Below, one piece after another: positions 7,189-57,129 of a stretch of 64,000 bases of DNA. The translations under genes were made by a program, and so were the position numbers. The notes beneath the pieces are model-generated. The model was not told the DNA's origin. It was given only the letters and a program-made list of their open reading frames with translations, and ran no database searches. The stretch is from a virus. Every line of letters begins with the position of its first letter. Position 1 is the stretch's first letter. The DNA lies in IMG/VR virus record IMGVR_UViG_3300007609_000013, positions 10,129 to 74,128 of that record; one strand, given 5' to 3'.

Positions 7189-7200
7189 ATAAATATTTAT
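7189..7200. promoter_or_regulatory. palindromic pair of overlapping TAAATA late-type promoters
   Basis: ATAAATATTTAT between divergent HNH and SGNH genes. Confidence 0.55.
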
Positions 7201-13061: not shown

Positions 13062-13137
13062 TGGCTGCCTGAGCAGGACTCGAACCTGCGACCAAAAGAT
13101 TAACAGTCTTCTGCTCTACCTGCTGAGCTATCAGGCA
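13062..13137 (-). tRNA. tRNA-Asn(GTT)
   Basis: cloverleaf, anticodon loop CTGTTAA, TTCGA T-loop, encoded CCA. Confidence 0.95.
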
Positions 13138-13141
13138 AGGT

Positions 13142-13379
13142 TGGTGCCCGGGGGCACTTATAATATAGTGCAAAATAATGGTGCCGCTGGAGGGAGTCGA
13201 ACCCCCAACCTTCTGGACCTAAACCAGACGCCTCTGCCAATTGGGCCACAGCGGCATTACTTTGCTATTGCTCTATAGTATCTATCTCTGCACTGATGAT
13301 AAGTTAAATTTAACTCTTTAGCAGCACCTCTGATACCATATTGCTCAACACATTTTGCTACCAAATCCACCACCCGGGC
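13142..13379 (-). pseudogene. separated remnants of a tRNA-Leu plus an HTH-like ORF fragment
   Basis: 5' piece GCCCGGGTGGTGGATTTGGTAG (13379-13358); complementary 3' piece CCCGGGCACCA (13152-13142). Confidence 0.55.
13179..13255 (-). tRNA. tRNA-Leu(TAG) with a short (5-nt) variable loop
   Basis: GCCGCTG/CAGCGGC acceptor, A73-CCA, TCTGG-TTTAGGT-CCAGA anticodon arm. Confidence 0.8.
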
Positions 13380-13384
13380 AAGAG

Positions 13385-13460
13385 TGGTGCTCGTTCACGG
13401 AGTCGAACCGCGGACCTACGCATTACAAGTGCGTTGCTCTACCAGCTGAGCTAAACGAGC
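13385..13460 (-). tRNA. tRNA-Thr(TGT)
   Basis: cloverleaf, loop CTTGTAA, CCA end. Confidence 0.95.
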
Positions 13461-13467
13461 ATGTATT

Positions 13468-14835
13468 TTAGGGTAACCCAATTTTTTTATAATCTACCCA
13501 TGTAGATCTATCTTGTTCGATGTGTTGTTCTACATCTTTGTCGGACATTGGTTTACCAAGTTTTTGATTTTCATCTATCCATGTGTTGTACATTTGCAAA
13601 CATTCTTCGAAATTTTTTACTATATATTTTTTTTCTGCAAAAGTCTGTTTTTTAATAGGAATTGAAAATTGAAGTATTCCAAGTTTTACCATTTCGTCAA
13701 CAGTGTCGTTTGCAATTTTATAATTATCATGATAGCTATCATTGAAGTCTTTATGCAAGTTATAAAATAGATCTTCGCGCATCTTTTTATTCACAATTGT
13801 GACTTTTTGCGTTTGATTACTATATTTTTCCTGCATTTTATTATCAATTATTAACATTTGTTCTAGATAAAACGTGATTTTATGAACATTTATACATTCT
13901 TGTTTGATCGATTCTGGTAGATTGATCCAATCATCTATCGAGTCCAATTGTGGCCAGTTTTCGTTTGCTACAGAATTATAATCTGTTACAAATTTTTCCC
14001 ATGCTAAGTTGTATTGTTCCGAATAATCTAGATTTTCACTTTGAGTTTCTGCAGAAGCTGTTTCGATATATTGTTCTAATTTTTGTAAATCTTTGCGACT
14101 TTCCAAAGCAATGGTACCGATATCGCTGGAATAATAATGGCATTTATTGTAATCAGCAAAACTGATGTTGAATTTGTCTTGCCAAGTGGTTTTTTCTTTG
14201 TCCGCAAAAAAAGGAAGGTTTAAAATAAATTGTTCTATATTTGGCATATGTTTTTCATACACATAATAGGATGGTATATGAAATGTTGATTCTGCCCATT
14301 CTATATACTGTTTGTAGCTGTGTAAACTTTGCTTGACGCTCAAAGGGTCTATGGTTATTTGGTTTTTAAAGATACTGTAAAATGTTCTAAGTTTTTCATC
14401 AGGTAAAAAAACATTTAGATTTTTTGTGATTTTGTTGATAGCCCAACTTAAAGAGTGTTCGAAAAGATTTTCTCGTTGACAACAAATGATATAATAGTTA
14501 TCATTTAGATATTTATAAAACGATAATTGCTCTCCTATAGGATCTTTTCTAAAAAGAATGTTGTAATAAGGTAACTTTATGATTTTATAGTGATCAACAC
14601 TTTCGAGTAATTCTTGAATTTCTCCCAGACTTTGCATATTGTTGTATTCACAATCATTGACACATCTAAGAATTTCGCTGTTAAATTCAGGCGAATAATA
14701 TTTTTCTAAACCTAATTCGACATGCCCGACATCAATCACTGGACGATCAAAGCTTTGAAATTGCATGTAAACAGCAAGTGTTGTTTCTAAAAGTGTTCCT
14801 CCTACTGCATCAGGAGTAAGTAACAAAATGTTCAT
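13468..14835 (-). CDS. AT-rich hypothetical protein (sulfotransferase/P-loop-like N-terminus) inserted in the tRNA cluster
   Basis: 455 aa; LLTPDAVGGTLL, R.NLFE..LSW; lower GC than flanks. Confidence 0.7.
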   Translation of the reverse strand: MNILLLTPDAVGGTLLETTLAVYMQFQSFDRPVIDVGHVELGLEKYYSPEFNSEILRCVNDCEYNNMQSLGEIQELLESVDHYKIIKLPYYNILFRKDPIGEQLSFYKYLNDNYYIICCQRENLFEHSLSWAINKITKNLNVFLPDEKLRTFYSIFKNQITIDPLSVKQSLHSYKQYIEWAESTFHIPSYYVYEKHMPNIEQFILNLPFFADKEKTTWQDKFNISFADYNKCHYYSSDIGTIALESRKDLQKLEQYIETASAETQSENLDYSEQYNLAWEKFVTDYNSVANENWPQLDSIDDWINLPESIKQECINVHKITFYLEQMLIIDNKMQEKYSNQTQKVTIVNKKMREDLFYNLHKDFNDSYHDNYKIANDTVDEMVKLGILQFSIPIKKQTFAEKKYIVKNFEECLQMYNTWIDENQKLGKPMSDKDVEQHIEQDRSTWVDYKKIGLP

Positions 14836-14921
14836 CTAGTTTCTCATAATTTATCTGTGCGCACCCAAGTAGGAAATGAAATTCTCGTTTTTTGCTTGCG
14901 AGCAATCTCCCGGGGTGGTGC

Positions 14922-15012
14922 TGGCAGAAGCGGAGGGATTCGAACCCTCGGTAGGGTATTAGCCTACACTCCCTTAGCAGGGGAGCGCCTTCAGCCACTC
15001 AGCCACGCTTCT
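14922..15012 (-). tRNA. tRNA-Ser(GCT)
   Basis: long variable arm, loop CTGCTAA, G73-CCA. Confidence 0.95.
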
Positions 15013-15056
15013 GTTGTAGTGTATTTACACAGTGAACTTCACTGCTTTCTCTAGAT

Positions 15057-15133
15057 TGGCCTCGCCGGCTGGACTCGAACCAGCAACCTACAGCTTAGAA
15101 GGCTGTTGCACTATCCGGTTGTGCTACGACGAG
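15057..15133 (-). tRNA. tRNA-Arg(TCT)
   Basis: loop CTTCTAA, CCA end. Confidence 0.95.
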
Positions 15134-15144
15134 AATTTGGTGTA

Positions 15145-15918
15145 CTACCTAGAATAGTATCGCTCCAACAAAAACTCAGCAAAGTCTTTGTGACCCGAGG
15201 GTCCCATGTGCCCAACCTTGTATGGTTTGTTGTTGACAACAGCTTCATGGTTGTCAACAGGTGCATGATTTCTCTGCAAGCACCATTCCAGAAACGAAAA
15301 CTCAAATATATCCAGTATTCTTGAATTCTGTTTCATTTCCTCGTAAAAATTGGCCACAAAAGGTGCAGAAAAATCAATGGTTTCTTGATACATAGGAGAA
15401 AAAATTATGTAATCAATGTTGTTGTTTTCGCACCAATTTGCAAATAATATTATTTTGGCCAAAAGATCAACAGTCTCAGCTTCAATATCATACCAATCAA
15501 TGTAATTTCTGCAGAAGTTCCGGTATGCTTTGCCCTCATGAAGGTCAATTGATTTATTTCTGCGCTGATACCAGTTCTTTCCATCCAGTGGTTGAATACA
15601 CACAAAGTCTCCGTCACTCAATGATTGCAAGTCCTCATGAGGAACCTGCCTCCATCTTGCTATGTCGTGTTGTGTGTGCCACAGTTCTGTTCTAAATATA
15701 AAACTTAGACTAACACAAGCTAAAATATTACTGTGCTTGTGTTTTAGCTCAAGTAAATCTCTTAGGCTGGTGCGGAATATTCTGCTGTTTGCAGACCCAA
15801 GCACTGCCCTATTGATCACGTGTGCGCCAAAAAAATCAGCAAGATGGTCAGCATACTTTTTGTAATTTCCGGATCGGACATAGCTGTCCCCGTTGACGTA
15901 GATCAAATCATATGTCAT
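15145..15918 (-). CDS. SGNH-like protein within the tRNA cluster
   Basis: NGDSY, INRAVLGSANSRIFR, GHMGPSGH. Confidence 0.65.
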   Translation of the reverse strand: MTYDLIYVNGDSYVRSGNYKKYADHLADFFGAHVINRAVLGSANSRIFRTSLRDLLELKHKHSNILACVSLSFIFRTELWHTQHDIARWRQVPHEDLQSLSDGDFVCIQPLDGKNWYQRRNKSIDLHEGKAYRNFCRNYIDWYDIEAETVDLLAKIILFANWCENNNIDYIIFSPMYQETIDFSAPFVANFYEEMKQNSRILDIFEFSFLEWCLQRNHAPVDNHEAVVNNKPYKVGHMGPSGHKDFAEFLLERYYSR

Positions 15919-15934
15919 GCTGTTTCCTGTGTAT

Positions 15935-16011
15935 TGGTGGACCCACCTGGACTCGAACCAGGGACCAATGAATTATGAGTTCACTGCTCTAACCAACTGA
16001 GCTATAGGTCC
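15935..16011 (-). tRNA. tRNA with CAT anticodon (probably Ile2, possibly elongator Met)
   Basis: GGACCTATAGCTCAG..., loop CTCATAA, paired 1:72, A73-CCA. Confidence 0.85.
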
Positions 16012-23492: not shown

Positions 23493-23521
23493 TTGACAAA
23501 AACCTATTTGATAAATATAAT
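23493..23521 (+). promoter_or_regulatory. perfect sigma70 promoter overlapping a TAAATA late motif (gp32)
   Basis: TTGACA-N17-TATAAT; TAAATA at 23512. Confidence 0.85.
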
Positions 23522-23522
23522 A

Positions 23523-23607
23523 GTGTACGATGCAAAGTAAAAGCGTCGTATGCACTAGGCATACACAGGCAAAGAGCAAAAAATAGGCAATATTAGGAGG
23601 CACTATC
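23523..23607 (+). promoter_or_regulatory. gp32 leader: hairpin plus four AGGCA repeats (putative translational operator)
   Basis: TACGATGC/GCGTCGTA stem; AGGCA at 23557, 23567, 23585, 23598. Confidence 0.6.
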
Positions 23608-24615
23608 ATGGCATCATTAGCAGAAATACGAGCTCGTCTTCAGGCAAAAGAAGACAACGGGCGATCACAATCCACAGGCGGCGACAACGCCATTTACCCA
23701 CACTGGAACATTCAAGAAGGCGAAAGCTGTACACTTCGTTTCTTACCAGACGGGGATCCAAACAACACTTTCTTTTGGGCAGAACGCCTAATGATCAAAC
23801 TGCCATTCTCTGGCATCAAAGGCGAAATGGACAGTAAACCAGTTATTGTAAACGTACCCTGCGTTGAAATGTGGCAGGAAGCATGTCCAGTTTTGGCAGA
23901 AGTTCGCACTTGGTTCAAGGACAGTTCACTGGAAGACATGGGTCGCAAGTATTGGAAAAAACGCAGTTATGTATTCCAAGGATTTGTACGTGAAAATCCA
24001 TTGCAAGAAGATACACCTGCCAACCCAATTCGCAGATTCATCATTGGGCCACAACTGTTTGCACCAATCAAAGATGCACTGATGGACCCAGAGTTGGAAG
24101 AACTGCCCACCGATTATACCGCAGGACTTGACTTTGTGATCAAGAAAACTTCAAAAGGTGGTTATGCGGATTACAGTACTTCAAAGTGGGCACGCAAGGA
24201 AACTGCATTAACCGAAGCTGAACAGGCTGCCATTGAGCAACACGGTCTTTACACACTAAACGACTTCTTGCCCAAAAAGCCCAGTGAAACAGAACTGCAA
24301 ATCATCAAACAAATGTTTGAAGATTCAGTAGATGGTCAGCCATATGATCCAGACAAGTATGGTCAGTACTATCGCCCAGCAGGCATGGCTGCTCCTGCAG
24401 GTGCTGTTGCCCCTACTCCGGCACCAACAAACCAGCCACAGTCAGCACCAATTCCGGAAGTCAAAGAAACAGCCGCTGTTGATTCGACACCACCGTTTGA
24501 TGTTGATGAAAAACCAGCCGAAGCGTCGGCATCAGTTGAAACAGAAGCTAAACCGTCTGGCGATCGTGCACAAGATATCTTGGCAATGATTCGCAGTAGA
24601 CAATCATCTTCCTAA
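23608..24615 (+). CDS. single-stranded DNA-binding protein (T4 gp32-like)
   Basis: LRFLPD, C....CPV, YWKKRSY, GYADYSTS.W, flexible acidic tail. Confidence 0.9.
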   Translation: MASLAEIRARLQAKEDNGRSQSTGGDNAIYPHWNIQEGESCTLRFLPDGDPNNTFFWAERLMIKLPFSGIKGEMDSKPVIVNVPCVEMWQEACPVLAEVRTWFKDSSLEDMGRKYWKKRSYVFQGFVRENPLQEDTPANPIRRFIIGPQLFAPIKDALMDPELEELPTDYTAGLDFVIKKTSKGGYADYSTSKWARKETALTEAEQAAIEQHGLYTLNDFLPKKPSETELQIIKQMFEDSVDGQPYDPDKYGQYYRPAGMAAPAGAVAPTPAPTNQPQSAPIPEVKETAAVDSTPPFDVDEKPAEASASVETEAKPSGDRAQDILAMIRSRQSSS

Positions 24616-55369: not shown

Positions 55370-55437
55370 TACAAAAGTTTGTAATTGTATAAATATTACA
55401 AAGTCCTACGGGACACTATTTTTGGAGATATATAAAA

Positions 55438-55923: not shown

Positions 55924-56460
55924 ATGACCTATCATCAACGAGTGCACGGTAGCATATCAAGTACCAGCAATGAAAACATAGCAGAAGCATTTGCAGTGTA
56001 CACTCTCATAGACATCACTGCTACTGGTATTGTAGCACCTTACAACTCAACTCTCAAGCAAGTAATCGACGACAGCGATACTATTATCAACAATGAAACC
56101 AGTTGGAACAAAAGCAGAAGCAAGCAAAGAAACTGGGAAACATTAGTTCAAGTGCTAGGGCTACGATCTTTGCCAAATATCCTGTATACGCCTGTATGCA
56201 AATACGAAAGTCTCAGTAACTTTGATTTTGGATCTGCGTATAAAGGCAAAGAAAACGTTTGGTGTTTTGAATTTACCACCGAACAAAATCAATTGTTCAC
56301 ATTAGGAGATAAACCTACAGCACTTTTACAGCAGGATTTGCATCAGGTGCCTGTTATTACCAATTTAGACGAAACAGTAGACATTTCGCCTGGTATTATT
56401 AATAGTACGGACCCAAGCACAAGAAATATATGTGTGTATTACTTGACAGATACCAAATGA
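55924..56460 (+). CDS. hypothetical protein
   Basis: TLIDIT.TG, Q.NW.T..Q...LR. Confidence 0.65.
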   Translation: MTYHQRVHGSISSTSNENIAEAFAVYTLIDITATGIVAPYNSTLKQVIDDSDTIINNETSWNKSRSKQRNWETLVQVLGLRSLPNILYTPVCKYESLSNFDFGSAYKGKENVWCFEFTTEQNQLFTLGDKPTALLQQDLHQVPVITNLDETVDISPGIINSTDPSTRNICVYYLTDTK

Positions 56461-56547
56461 TAAATATTACAAAAGATGCACTAGGCAATTTTTATCAGGC
56501 ACATCACAGGCAAACAACCGGGCACTACTTTAGGCATTCATAGCATC
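56461..56547 (+). ncRNA. AGGCA-repeat leader or small RNA resembling the gp32 leader
   Basis: TAAATA then (A/G)GGCA at 56483, 56497, 56508, 56520, 56532. Confidence 0.5.
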
Positions 56548-56579
56548 GCATTATGTAGAATATTTTGTGGAGATTTATT

Positions 56580-56840
56580 GTGTCAACAGTAGACATTGAA
56601 AAAGAGAGTTTAGAGGCCCATGTTGAGCTTTGTGCTGAAAGGTACTCTCGTATGGAAGAAAAGTTTTCTAACGTAGAACAGCGATTGACTACAGTGGAAA
56701 CTGTGTTAGTTGACATCAAGCAAGCTATTATTCATCAAAATACCGAAAGACAAAAACAAATAATCGGTTGGGCCATAGGCACAATTGGTTTTTTAGCAAC
56801 CAGCTGCGTAACACTAGTATACATTCTAATAAACACATAA
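56580..56840 (+). CDS. coiled-coil protein with C-terminal TM helix
   Basis: EKESLEAHV.LCAERY; GGAG RBS, GTG start. Confidence 0.65.
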   Translation: MSTVDIEKESLEAHVELCAERYSRMEEKFSNVEQRLTTVETVLVDIKQAIIHQNTERQKQIIGWAIGTIGFLATSCVTLVYILINT

Positions 56841-56844
56841 CAGT

Positions 56845-57129
56845 ATGTTAATCCAAGAAATAACACAAGGCATCAATACACTGGCAGAAGCAAAAATCGC
56901 TTGGGCACGAAGAGGCACCAAGGTTGTTCGCAAGTATAGATGCACATCAGGCAAACGCAAAGGCAGGGTTGTAGCCAGCCCTAGCCAGTGCTTTGCTGCC
57001 CCTGATATTAAAAAAAGAATCAAACTCAAAATGACCAAGGCTAGACTAGGATCACGCATGGCAAGAAAAGCCAAGCGCACCAAAAAAGTCAATCCAGCCA
57101 GCAGAAGAGTAGCGTCGCTAAATAGATAA
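56845..57129 (+). CDS. highly basic small protein
   Basis: K/R-rich; YRC.SG.RKGR.V. Confidence 0.7.
   Translation: MLIQEITQGINTLAEAKIAWARRGTKVVRKYRCTSGKRKGRVVASPSQCFAAPDIKKRIKLKMTKARLGSRMARKAKRTKKVNPASRRVASLNR

What the first reader, a model, noticed from the sequence alone, without database searches (positions are those of the whole stretch)
56461..56547. A second AGGCA-repeat element 33 kb away mimics the gp32 leader: possible decoy RNA or shared regulon
Seen: right after a TAAATA there are five (A/G)GGCA motifs, 11-14 nt apart, in otherwise unstructured sequence closed by GATGC/GCATC. The element shares the exact 12-mer ATGCACTAGGCA (56476 versus 23550) and the 10-mer CACAGGCAAA (56505 versus 23564) with the gp32 leader. 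Established: the multi-motif layout recalls CsrB/RsmZ sponge RNAs, which use GGA. Inference: a late RNA that titrates the protein repressing gp32, or couples the downstream membrane-protein gene to SSB levels. I know of no description of this circuit.
Basis: partly seen in the sequence, partly recalled or inferred. Interest (0 to 1): 0.7.

Follow-up and report, generated by a model that had tools for sequence, protein, structure and literature searches.

The report
Repeated-word leader RNA shared with SSB gene
The five GGCA words are real and belong to a conserved untranslated leader in front of a small membrane-protein gene of uncultured giant phages; the same word marks the leader of the phage's DNA-coating (SSB) protein gene, so one unknown RNA-binding regulator, perhaps the SSB itself, probably reads both.

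Summary
Five RGGCA words lie at 56483-56532, spaced 14/11/12/12 nt. They follow a T4-type late promoter (TAAATA) and are bracketed by GATGC/GCATC.

The stretch is the 5' leader of a late gene for an 86-aa tail-anchored membrane protein, not a free-standing RNA. The same plan (promoter, GAUGY, 3-7 GGC[A/U] words, GCRUC, ribosome site) heads this gene in 26 of 28 members of one well-supported clade and in 1 of the other 43 homologues.

The words are strand-specific: 102 sense against 1 antisense. They sit in G-poor RNA that folds less than shuffled controls.

The gp32-like SSB leader carries 1-4 GGCA words in all 74 relatives examined.

Non-coding GGCW arrays occur only at these two leaders in the own contig and G006. 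In G008 only the membrane-gene leader has one.

Best reading: a repeated-word operator for one RNA-binding factor, by analogy with T4 gene 32 autoregulation. The factor is unknown and binding is untested. A decoy role is neither supported nor excluded.

No Rfam family matches, no RegA or CsrA gene was found, and no paper was found.

Earlier follow-ups of this scan reported the same word on other giant-phage DNA (e1-5379037, e1-5995323, e1-5337873).

The parts
56458..56467 (+). T4-type late promoter core (TGATAAATAT, containing TAAATA at 56461-56466). It overlaps the stop codon of the upstream gene.
   Evidence: TAAATA stands in front of the membrane-protein gene in the 70 relatives examined, 4-157 nt from the start. 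ATAAATA also precedes genes at 7189, 7957, 48860 and 55389. Promoter function is inferred from the T4 late promoter TATAAATA.
56475..56479 (+). GAUGC, the 5' arm of the closing stem, at or within a few nt of the inferred RNA 5' end.
   Evidence: GATGY lies 5-9 nt after TAAATA in all 17 type-A leaders. It is the only consensus helix RNAalifold predicts.
56476..56487 (+). 12-mer AUGCACUAGGCA shared exactly with the SSB leader (23550). It can form a mini-hairpin (UGC / ACUAG / GCA) and also reads AUG-CAC-UAG.
56483..56536 (+). Array of five RGGCA words (56483, 56497, 56508, 56520, 56532) in G-poor, unstructured RNA.
   Evidence: Four of the five words are kept in L096 while the spacers diverge.
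56543..56547 (+). GCAUC, the 3' arm of the closing stem.
   Evidence: GCRTC lies 47-63 nt after GATGY in all 17 type-A leaders. The only changes are wobble-type (U-A to U.G, C-G to U.G), which fit pairing on the sense RNA only.
56569..56572 (+). Shine-Dalgarno GGAG, 7 nt before the GTG start.
   Evidence: Read from the sequence. GGAGG stands at the same place in L096.
56580..56840 (+). Late gene for an 86-aa protein with an N-terminal helical part and a C-terminal membrane anchor.
   Evidence: More than 550 homologous loci in IMG/VR. PHROG families of unknown function. Nearest named Atlas clusters are XhlA and DUF2951 at 0.92, a lead only.
23493..23521 (+). Perfect sigma-70-type promoter TTGACA-17-TATAAT of the SSB gene. 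It overlaps the same TGATAAATAT late-type motif (23509-23518).
23527..23549 (+). 5' hairpin of the SSB leader (ACGAUGC / 9-nt loop / GCGUCGU). It holds the same GAUGC...GCGUC pair as the membrane-gene leader.
   Evidence: (z = -2.13 for the leader).
23557..23602 (+). Four AGGCA words (23557, 23567, 23585, 23598) in the SSB leader. The last overlaps the AGGAGG ribosome site (23595-23600).
   Evidence: The words are conserved in 74 relatives with logo A[U/C]AGGCAAC.
23608..24615 (+). gp32-like single-strand DNA-binding protein gene.
   Evidence: phrog_1192, E = 8.8e-66. About 50% identical to the PA5oct SSB.

Best explanation
What it is: 56461-56579 is the 5' untranslated leader of a late mRNA for a small tail-anchored membrane protein.

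Anatomy: transcription starts a few bases after the TAAATA late promoter. The RNA begins with GAUGC, which can pair with GCAUC 63 nt further on. Between the two arms lies a G-poor, single-stranded tract with five (A/G)GGCA words about 12 nt apart.

Proposed mechanism (inferred): the tract is an operator. Each word is a docking point for one RNA-binding protein that also reads the GGCA words in the leader of the phage's gp32-like SSB gene, where the last word overlaps the ribosome site. Occupancy would spread to, or refold, the ribosome-binding region and set how much membrane protein is made. Its synthesis would thus be tied to the same signal that controls SSB synthesis.

Candidate reader (inferred): the most economical candidate is the SSB itself, as in T4 and RB69 gene 32 autoregulation. 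No phage RegA or CsrA homologue was found.

Shown here: the words, their conservation, strand specificity, spacing, single-strandedness, genome-wide exclusivity to these two leaders, and clade-wide retention.

Inferred only: transcription start, RNA-level action, protein binding, the identity of the protein and the direction of control.
For: 1. Family membership. 25 distinct long leaders share the plan TAAATA, GAUGY or a 5' hairpin, 2-7 GGCW words, a second stem, then the ribosome site. A profile built without the window finds 56461-56561 as the only significant hit in 64 kb, E = 1.8e-4.
2. Retention. On a maximum-likelihood tree of 71 membrane-protein homologues, the long leader sits on one side of a well-supported split (support 97/90): 26 of 28 rows there have it. 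In 0 of 500 label shuffles was the label as clustered. It is kept although the protein falls to about 40% identity.
3. Word versus spacer. The closest relative L096 (protein 78% identical, same gene order) keeps four words, both stem arms and the ribosome site, while the spacers differ.
4. RNA level. There are 102 sense GGCW against 1 antisense. Spacing is 10-14 nt with a mode of 11. G is 8% outside the words. 24 of 25 arrays fold less well than dinucleotide shuffles, mean z = +0.85. Stem variants are G.U-compatible only on the sense strand.
5. Link to the SSB leader. All 74 relatives carry GGCA in the last 90 nt before the SSB start (mean 2.6). TGCC on the same stretch averages 0.04, and control stretches average 0.03 (inside the SSB coding region) and 0.54 (upstream, -400 to -310). 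Words peak at 11, 24, 37-39 and 63-66 nt before the ATG, and the last often lies on the ribosome site.
6. Exclusivity. Non-coding arrays of 4 or more GGCW in 55 nt occur only at the SSB and membrane-gene leaders in G006 (307 kb), and only at the membrane-gene leader in G008 (261 kb). That scan flags only the membrane-gene leader in the own 74-kb contig, where the SSB leader is picked up by the cluster and intergenic counts. Of 35 intergenic regions in the window, only these two hold 2 or more sense AGGCW.
7. Precedent. T4 gp32 represses its own translation through a structured 5' element followed by an unstructured repeat tract that reaches the ribosome site. RB69 shows that such targets diverge in sequence (PMC3014915, PMC535899).
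Against:
- The closing stem has no double compensatory change. A competing local hairpin that uses the first word is possible.
- In the membrane-gene leader the last word lies about 37 nt before the ribosome site. Direct occlusion as in the SSB leader is therefore not evident.
- T4 gp32 is not known to need a specific word.
- The two arrays do not always co-occur. Nine genomes or contigs have the SSB array with a short membrane-gene leader. G008 has the membrane-gene array with only one word in the SSB leader. G007 (80% complete) has the array but no SSB hit.
- The leaders are related by descent, so counts of leaders are not independent events.
Confidence: 0.5

Rival explanations
1. Decoy or sponge. 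The abundant late leader soaks up the protein that represses SSB translation and so raises SSB output late in infection. Control of the membrane-protein gene would be secondary.
For: The array has five to seven words, more than in the SSB leader, sits behind a late promoter and is single-stranded. In this window the two leaders share a 12-mer.
Against: There is no terminator or processing signal, and the element is always fused to the same gene. Nine relatives (G001, G003, G004, G021, G025, G026, G027, G031 and the contig holding L045 and L140) keep the SSB array without it. Titration needs abundance data, and there are none.
Confidence: 0.1
2. A factor-independent leader. The A/C-rich unstructured tract with AGG-like words acts as a translational enhancer or ribosome standby site, and the 5'-terminal stem stabilises the mRNA. 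No specific repressor is involved.
For: The arrays are selected to be unstructured. In some SSB leaders the last word (AAAGGCAAC) is the only ribosome-site-like element. The stem lies at the inferred 5' end. From my own knowledge, the T4 gene 32 leader is known to stabilise mRNA.
Against: The invariant letters are GGC, with a preferred A before and C/A after. Many type-A copies read CGGCAC or UGGCAC and have no AGG. A standby site would not need a fixed word at an 11-13 nt period, nor confinement to exactly two leaders per genome.
Confidence: 0.15
3. A DNA-level element. The co-oriented words are binding sites on double- or single-stranded DNA for a regulator of late transcription or replication, placed downstream of the promoter.
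For: The 10-14 bp spacing is near one helical turn. Both loci carry the same TGATAAATAT promoter word.
Against: The words are always downstream of the promoter, always on the coding strand (102 to 1) and always within the transcribed leader. GCGTC variants of the 3' arm keep pairing only as RNA. In the SSB leaders the words keep a register to the start codon.
Confidence: 0.07
4. A neutral remnant, or an antisense or peptide product. The options are a recombination scar copied from the SSB leader, a minus-strand small RNA complementary to the SSB leader, or a leaderless mini-ORF (AUG-CAC-UAG).
For: 12-mer and 10-mer identities with the SSB leader. A minus-strand TTGACA-16-AATATT at 56586-56559. 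An AUG lies inside the invariant GAUGC.
Against: The element is retained across a clade down to about 40% protein identity. The minus-strand -10 is not kept in L096, and the TTGACA is the reverse of the gene's first codons. Wobble changes fit the sense strand only. The mini-ORFs differ in length and sequence (2 to 17 codons), while the words are kept in all frames.
Confidence: 0.04

Closest known systems
Autogenous translational operator of phage T4/RB69 gene 32 (PMC3014915; PMC535899)
   Same: It is the leader of an SSB gene with a structured 5' element followed by an unstructured tract of short repeats that reaches the ribosome site. Operator sequences diverge between related phages. Here the SSB leader has a 5' hairpin followed by four AGGCA words, the last of which overlaps AGGAGG.
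   Different: The repeat is (A)GGC[A/U][A/C] rather than UUAAA. I did not identify a pseudoknot. The same word also heads a second, unrelated late gene, which is not described for T4 gp32. Binding by the SSB is untested.
Ff (M13/f1) gene V protein repression of gene II mRNA (from my own knowledge, not checked here)
   Same: A phage ssDNA-binding protein represses translation of a different gene through a site in that gene's leader. This is a precedent for an SSB with a heterologous mRNA target.
   Different: The phage, the protein fold and the operator sequence are all unrelated. It has no periodic GGC word array.
CsrA/RsmA targets and CsrB/RsmZ sponge RNAs
   Same: Multiple copies of a GG-containing word sit in otherwise G-poor, accessible RNA. 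The words occur in mRNA leaders and could titrate a protein.
   Different: The defining GGA is absent: the word is GGC, and there is no GGA in 56461-56547. No CsrA gene was found in five related phage genomes. The words are not presented in hairpin loops.
T4 RegA translational repressor and its targets (PMC3014915)
   Same: One phage protein represses several replication-related mRNAs through short unstructured sites near the start. The reference list of PMC3014915 cites an RB69 RegA selection that yielded repeated UAA triplets.
   Different: No RegA homologue (PF01818) is present in five genomes. The word differs. The array lies well upstream of the start in the membrane-gene leader.

Membership tests
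GGCW-repeat leader of the late membrane-protein gene (family defined here from IMG/VR relatives) | TAAATA promoter directly upstream of the homologous membrane-protein gene, with a leader of 75 nt or more | tested here: met
   The window leader runs about 113 nt from TAAATA to the GTG start. 25 distinct relatives have leaders of 79-157 nt, against 4-52 nt in the short class.
GGCW-repeat leader of the late membrane-protein gene (family defined here from IMG/VR relatives) | Three or more co-oriented GGC[A/U] words at 10-14 nt spacing in G-poor sequence | tested here: met
   Five words with gaps of 14/11/12/12.
GGCW-repeat leader of the late membrane-protein gene (family defined here from IMG/VR relatives) | Recognised by a sequence profile built from other members only | tested here: met
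   nhmmer E = 1.8e-4 at 56461-56561, the sole significant hit in the window.
GGCW-repeat leader of the late membrane-protein gene (family defined here from IMG/VR relatives) | GAUGY...GCRUC closing stem (type A) | tested here: inconclusive
   Both arms are present in all 17 type-A leaders, and it is the only RNAalifold helix. Only one-sided wobble changes occur, with no compensatory pair. Type-B leaders use a local 5' hairpin instead.
T4-type gene 32 translational operator | Lies in the leader of the SSB gene itself | tested here: not met
   The element heads a membrane-protein gene 33 kb from the SSB gene. The 23.5 kb array does lie in the SSB leader.
T4-type gene 32 translational operator | 5' pseudoknot that nucleates binding | tested here: inconclusive
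   Only a 5-bp long-range stem or a mini-hairpin is predicted. Pseudoknots were not searched for specifically.
T4-type gene 32 translational operator | Unstructured repeat tract that extends over the ribosome site | tested here: inconclusive
   The unstructured repeat tract is present. Its last word ends about 33 nt before GGAG (56569). In the SSB leader the last word overlaps the ribosome site.
T4-type gene 32 translational operator | Bound and repressed by the SSB protein | not testable with these tools
   Needs binding and translation assays.
CsrA/Rsm system (targets or sponge) | GGA core in the repeated word | tested here: not met
   The word is GGC[A/U], and there is no GGA in 56461-56547.
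CsrA/Rsm system (targets or sponge) | A CsrA-family protein available from the phage | tested here: not met
   PF02599 is absent from G000, G001, G006, G007 and G008. Host CsrA is unknown.
Any Rfam 15 family | Match at or near the gathering score | tested here: not met
   Only tRNAs reach the gathering score in the window. Nothing is meaningful at E up to 10 at either leader.

The most novel reading that the evidence does not exclude
A clade of uncultured giant phages has evolved a sequence-specific RNA word, (A)GGC[A/U][A/C] at a period of about 12 nt, that its own gp32-like SSB reads. The word has been copied from the SSB leader onto the leader of a late membrane-protein gene that may be lysis-related. 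This would make a small SSB-governed translational regulon linking free SSB, and so the state of DNA replication and packaging, to a late membrane function. According to another follow-up of this scan, the word also marks a DNA-polymerase gene in some genomes.
Probability: 0.3. Interest if true: 0.8.

Novelty: new variant of a known kind. Interest (0 to 1): 0.6.

Why it matters
Translational autoregulation of T4 gene 32 is a textbook case, yet how the SSB picks its RNA is still unclear (PMC535899).

This study turns up a large natural set of operators that could address that question:
- over 70 SSB leaders and 25 membrane-gene leaders;
- a short, countable word with a fixed period;
- a second target gene.

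That gives direct handles for binding studies. It would also show that phage SSB-type control can reach beyond the SSB gene.

The result adds an RNA leader family that Rfam lacks, found in an abundant group of uncultured freshwater and marine giant phages.

If the membrane protein acts in lysis, the circuit would link the replication state to lysis timing.

Tried and rejected
- **Chance:** rejected by shuffles and by conservation.
- **Third RGGCA cluster inside ORF 56845-57129 as part of the element:** rejected. The closest relative has 0 GGCA there at 73% protein identity.
- **Second array of the 300-kb relative G001 (91794-91849):** it lies inside the UvsX P-loop coding region.
- **Named relatives:** the PA5oct and RaK2 SSB leaders have no GGCA words, so the word is specific to the environmental clade.
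- **Close DNA relatives:** there is no DNA match in the phage collection. An exact-pattern scan of IMG/VR for the 12-mer plus the 10-mer found nothing. The upstream 178-aa protein gave no close relatives. The ATPase gene gave one non-syntenic locus.
- **Overall homology of the two leaders:** the profile does not link them.
both are absent.
it is present only in one of the two long-leader subclades and is absent from G008. This is weak evidence against it.
- **Rho-utilisation site (about 12-nt period, G-poor):** considered and set aside, because the invariant letters are GG, not YC.
- **More genomes holding both loci:** ten short contigs lacked the SSB gene.
- **Literature:** one full-text search found nothing relevant.

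Full report
**Setting**

The window is bases 10129-74128 of a 74-kb IMG/VR virus contig, estimated 21% complete, which implies a phage of about 350 kb. Its gp32-like SSB gene is at 23608-24615 (phrog_1192, E = 8.8e-66). The protein is about 50% identical to that of Pseudomonas phage PA5oct, 45% to Atu_ph07 and 40% to RaK2. The phage is therefore an uncultured member of the giant-phage group that carries T4-like replication genes.

**The observation**

- ORF 55924-56460 ends inside TGATAAATAT.
- TAAATA lies at 56461-56466, GATGC at 56475 and GCATC at 56543.
- Five RGGCA words start at 56483, 56497, 56508, 56520 and 56532.
- GGAG lies at 56569, and the GTG start of an 86-aa ORF at 56580.

The 12-mer ATGCACTAGGCA occurs only here and at 23550 in the SSB leader. 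The 10-mer CACAGGCAAA also occurs at two coding sites. TGATAAATAT occurs only at these two loci.

The two leaders are the top two RGGCA clusters of the window. A cluster of this size arose in 2 of 300 dinucleotide shuffles, and two such clusters in none.

A third cluster inside ORF 56845-57129 is not kept in the closest relative. I discount it.

**What the element is**

The downstream ORF has homologues in more than 550 IMG/VR contigs. In the 70 relatives examined, a TAAATA stands directly upstream of the gene. The leaders fall into two classes.
- Short leaders have 4-52 nt between TAAATA and the start and hold at most one stray GGCA.
- Long leaders run 79-157 nt and have a common plan: TAAATA, then 5-9 nt, GAUGY (type A) or a local hairpin (type B), 2-7 GGC[A/U] words, GCRUC or a second small hairpin, and the ribosome site.

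The closest relative, L096, has a membrane protein 78% identical and the same gene order (p139, p178, membrane protein, 94-aa basic protein, ATPase). It keeps four of the words, both stem arms and the ribosome site, while the spacers differ.

An nhmmer profile built from 16 relatives, with the window left out, finds 56461-56561 at E = 1.8e-4. This is the only significant hit in the window.

On a maximum-likelihood tree of 71 distinct membrane proteins, the long leader occupies one side of a well-supported split (support 97/90).
- 26 of 28 rows on that side have it.
- 42 of the 43 rows on the other side lack it; the exception is the long-branch row L167.
- 0 of 500 label shuffles were as clustered.

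The element is therefore old and retained while the protein it precedes diverges to about 40% identity.

No terminator lies between it and the gene. It is a leader, not a free-standing RNA.

**Evidence for action as RNA**

In 25 distinct leaders there are 102 GGC[A/U] on the sense strand and one on the other.
- Spacing is 10-14 nt, with a mode of 11.
- The logo is A(80%)-G-G-C-A/U-C/A.
- G is excluded next to the word and makes up 8% of the rest of the tract.

24 of 25 arrays fold less well than their dinucleotide shuffles, with mean z = +0.85 and +1.66 for the window. The leaders are related, so the P values overstate independence.

The only consensus helix found by RNAalifold is GAUGC/GCRUC. 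Its variants (U-A to U.G, C-G to U.G) keep pairing only on the sense RNA. There is no double compensatory change, so the stem is plausible but not proven.

A competing mini-hairpin (UGC, 4-5 nt loop, GCA) uses the first word. The 12-mer shared with the SSB leader is exactly such a hairpin.

**The SSB leader**

In 74 relatives whose SSB is 63-72% identical, every leader has GGCA in the last 90 nt.
- 65 of the 74 have two or more copies, and the mean is 2.6.
- TGCC on the same stretch averages 0.04.
- Control stretches average 0.03 (inside the SSB coding region) and 0.54 (upstream, -400 to -310).

The logo is A[U/C]AGGCAAC. Copies peak at 11, 24, 37-39 and 63-66 nt before the ATG, which is a lattice of about 13 nt. 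The last copy often lies on or serves as the ribosome site.

In the window the order is:
- a perfect TTGACA-17-TATAAT promoter overlapping the late-type motif;
- a 7-bp 5' hairpin that again uses GAUGC...GCGUC;
- four AGGCA words, the last overlapping AGGAGG.

PA5oct and RaK2 lack the word.

**Exclusivity and co-occurrence**

I fetched two near-complete relatives whole.
- In G006 (307 kb), non-coding arrays of four or more GGCW in 55 nt occur only at the SSB leader and the membrane-gene leader.
- In G008 (261 kb), such an array occurs only at the membrane-gene leader. Its SSB leader has a single GGCAC.

In the window, only these two of 35 intergenic regions hold two or more sense AGGCW.

Nine genomes or contigs have the SSB array with a short membrane-gene leader: G001, G003, G004, G021, G025, G026, G027, G031 and the contig holding L045 and L140. 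The SSB array is thus the wider feature, and the membrane-gene array is an addition in one subclade.

The word flavour appears to travel together within a genome. G006 and the window have AGGCA[A/U] at both loci. G008 has GGCAC at both. These are only two or three lineages.

**Mechanism**

The anatomy is a 5' structure, then a single-stranded periodic word array, then the ribosome site. This matches the logic of the T4/RB69 gene 32 operator. There, gp32 nucleates at a 5' structure and coats an unstructured repeat tract up to the ribosome site, and operator sequences diverge between phages (PMC3014915, PMC535899).

I therefore read both leaders as operators for one RNA-binding factor.
- The SSB is the most economical candidate.
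- No RegA or CsrA homologue is encoded in five related genomes.
- The conserved 94-aa basic protein downstream is missing from half of the long-leader clade.

The factor, the direction of control and a possible titration effect are inferences.

Against a simple T4-like picture:
- the last word in the membrane-gene leader is about 37 nt from the ribosome site;
- T4 gp32 is not known to need a word;
- G007 has the array but no SSB hit in 80% of its genome.

**Comparison and novelty**

There is no Rfam match and one literature search found nothing.

The CsrB likeness fails on its defining GGA.

Earlier follow-ups of this scan reached a similar reading on other giant-phage DNA:
- e1-5379037, a membrane-protein gene leader with a TAGGC array, with the same word at the SSB leader and a polymerase gene;
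- e1-5995323 and e1-5337873, the SSB leader plus a folded RNA.

I used those notes as leads and for the two papers. The tests above are my own.

**Verdict**

The element is a real, conserved, previously uncatalogued leader RNA. The decoy idea is untested. The shared-regulator idea is well motivated but unproven.

Noticed in passing
window 56845-57129 (+): A 94-aa, very basic protein with two conserved Cys. It is 59-80% identical in 11 relatives, better conserved than the membrane protein before it, and always lies directly downstream of that gene in one long-leader subclade. It has no Pfam or PHROG family. It could be a nucleic-acid-binding or head-internal protein.
   Followed up: partly
window 55389-55402 and 56460-56473 (+): The two neighbouring late-type promoters share a 14-mer, ATAAATATTACAAA. 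This suggests an extended late-promoter or initial-transcribed consensus in this phage.
   Followed up: no
window 56476-56484 and 23550-23558 (+): The shared 12-mer reads as a two-codon mini-ORF, AUG-CAC-UAG, close to the inferred RNA 5' end. Relatives have AUG-started frames of 2-17 codons at the same place, not conserved as peptides.
   Followed up: partly
window 13065-16011 (-): Six tRNA genes on the minus strand, by Rfam gathering scores.
   Followed up: no
L016, L022, L048 and others (SSB leaders of relatives), about 40-70 nt before the ATG: A hairpin between the first and second GGCAAC word (AGAUCUAAA...UUUAGAU). It shows sequence variants that keep pairing (for example AUUUAAG...CUUAAAU). 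The window's own SSB leader lacks it.
   Followed up: no
L167 (IMG/VR 3300044295_000252), leader of the membrane-protein gene: A long-branch homologue outside the long-leader clade has its own array of five GGCUC/GGCAC words. This is either an independent gain or a misplaced branch.
   Followed up: no
L082 (PA5oct MK797984.1 133629-134615): The PA5oct homologue of the SSB is annotated only as 'structural protein' (mass-spectrometry evidence). Its leader has a hairpin followed by an A/U-rich tract, closer to the T4 plan.
   Followed up: no
G007 (IMG/VR 3300032312_001422, 289 kb, 80% complete): This genome carries a type-A repeat leader at the membrane-protein gene, but no gp32-like SSB was found in the available sequence.
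   Followed up: no
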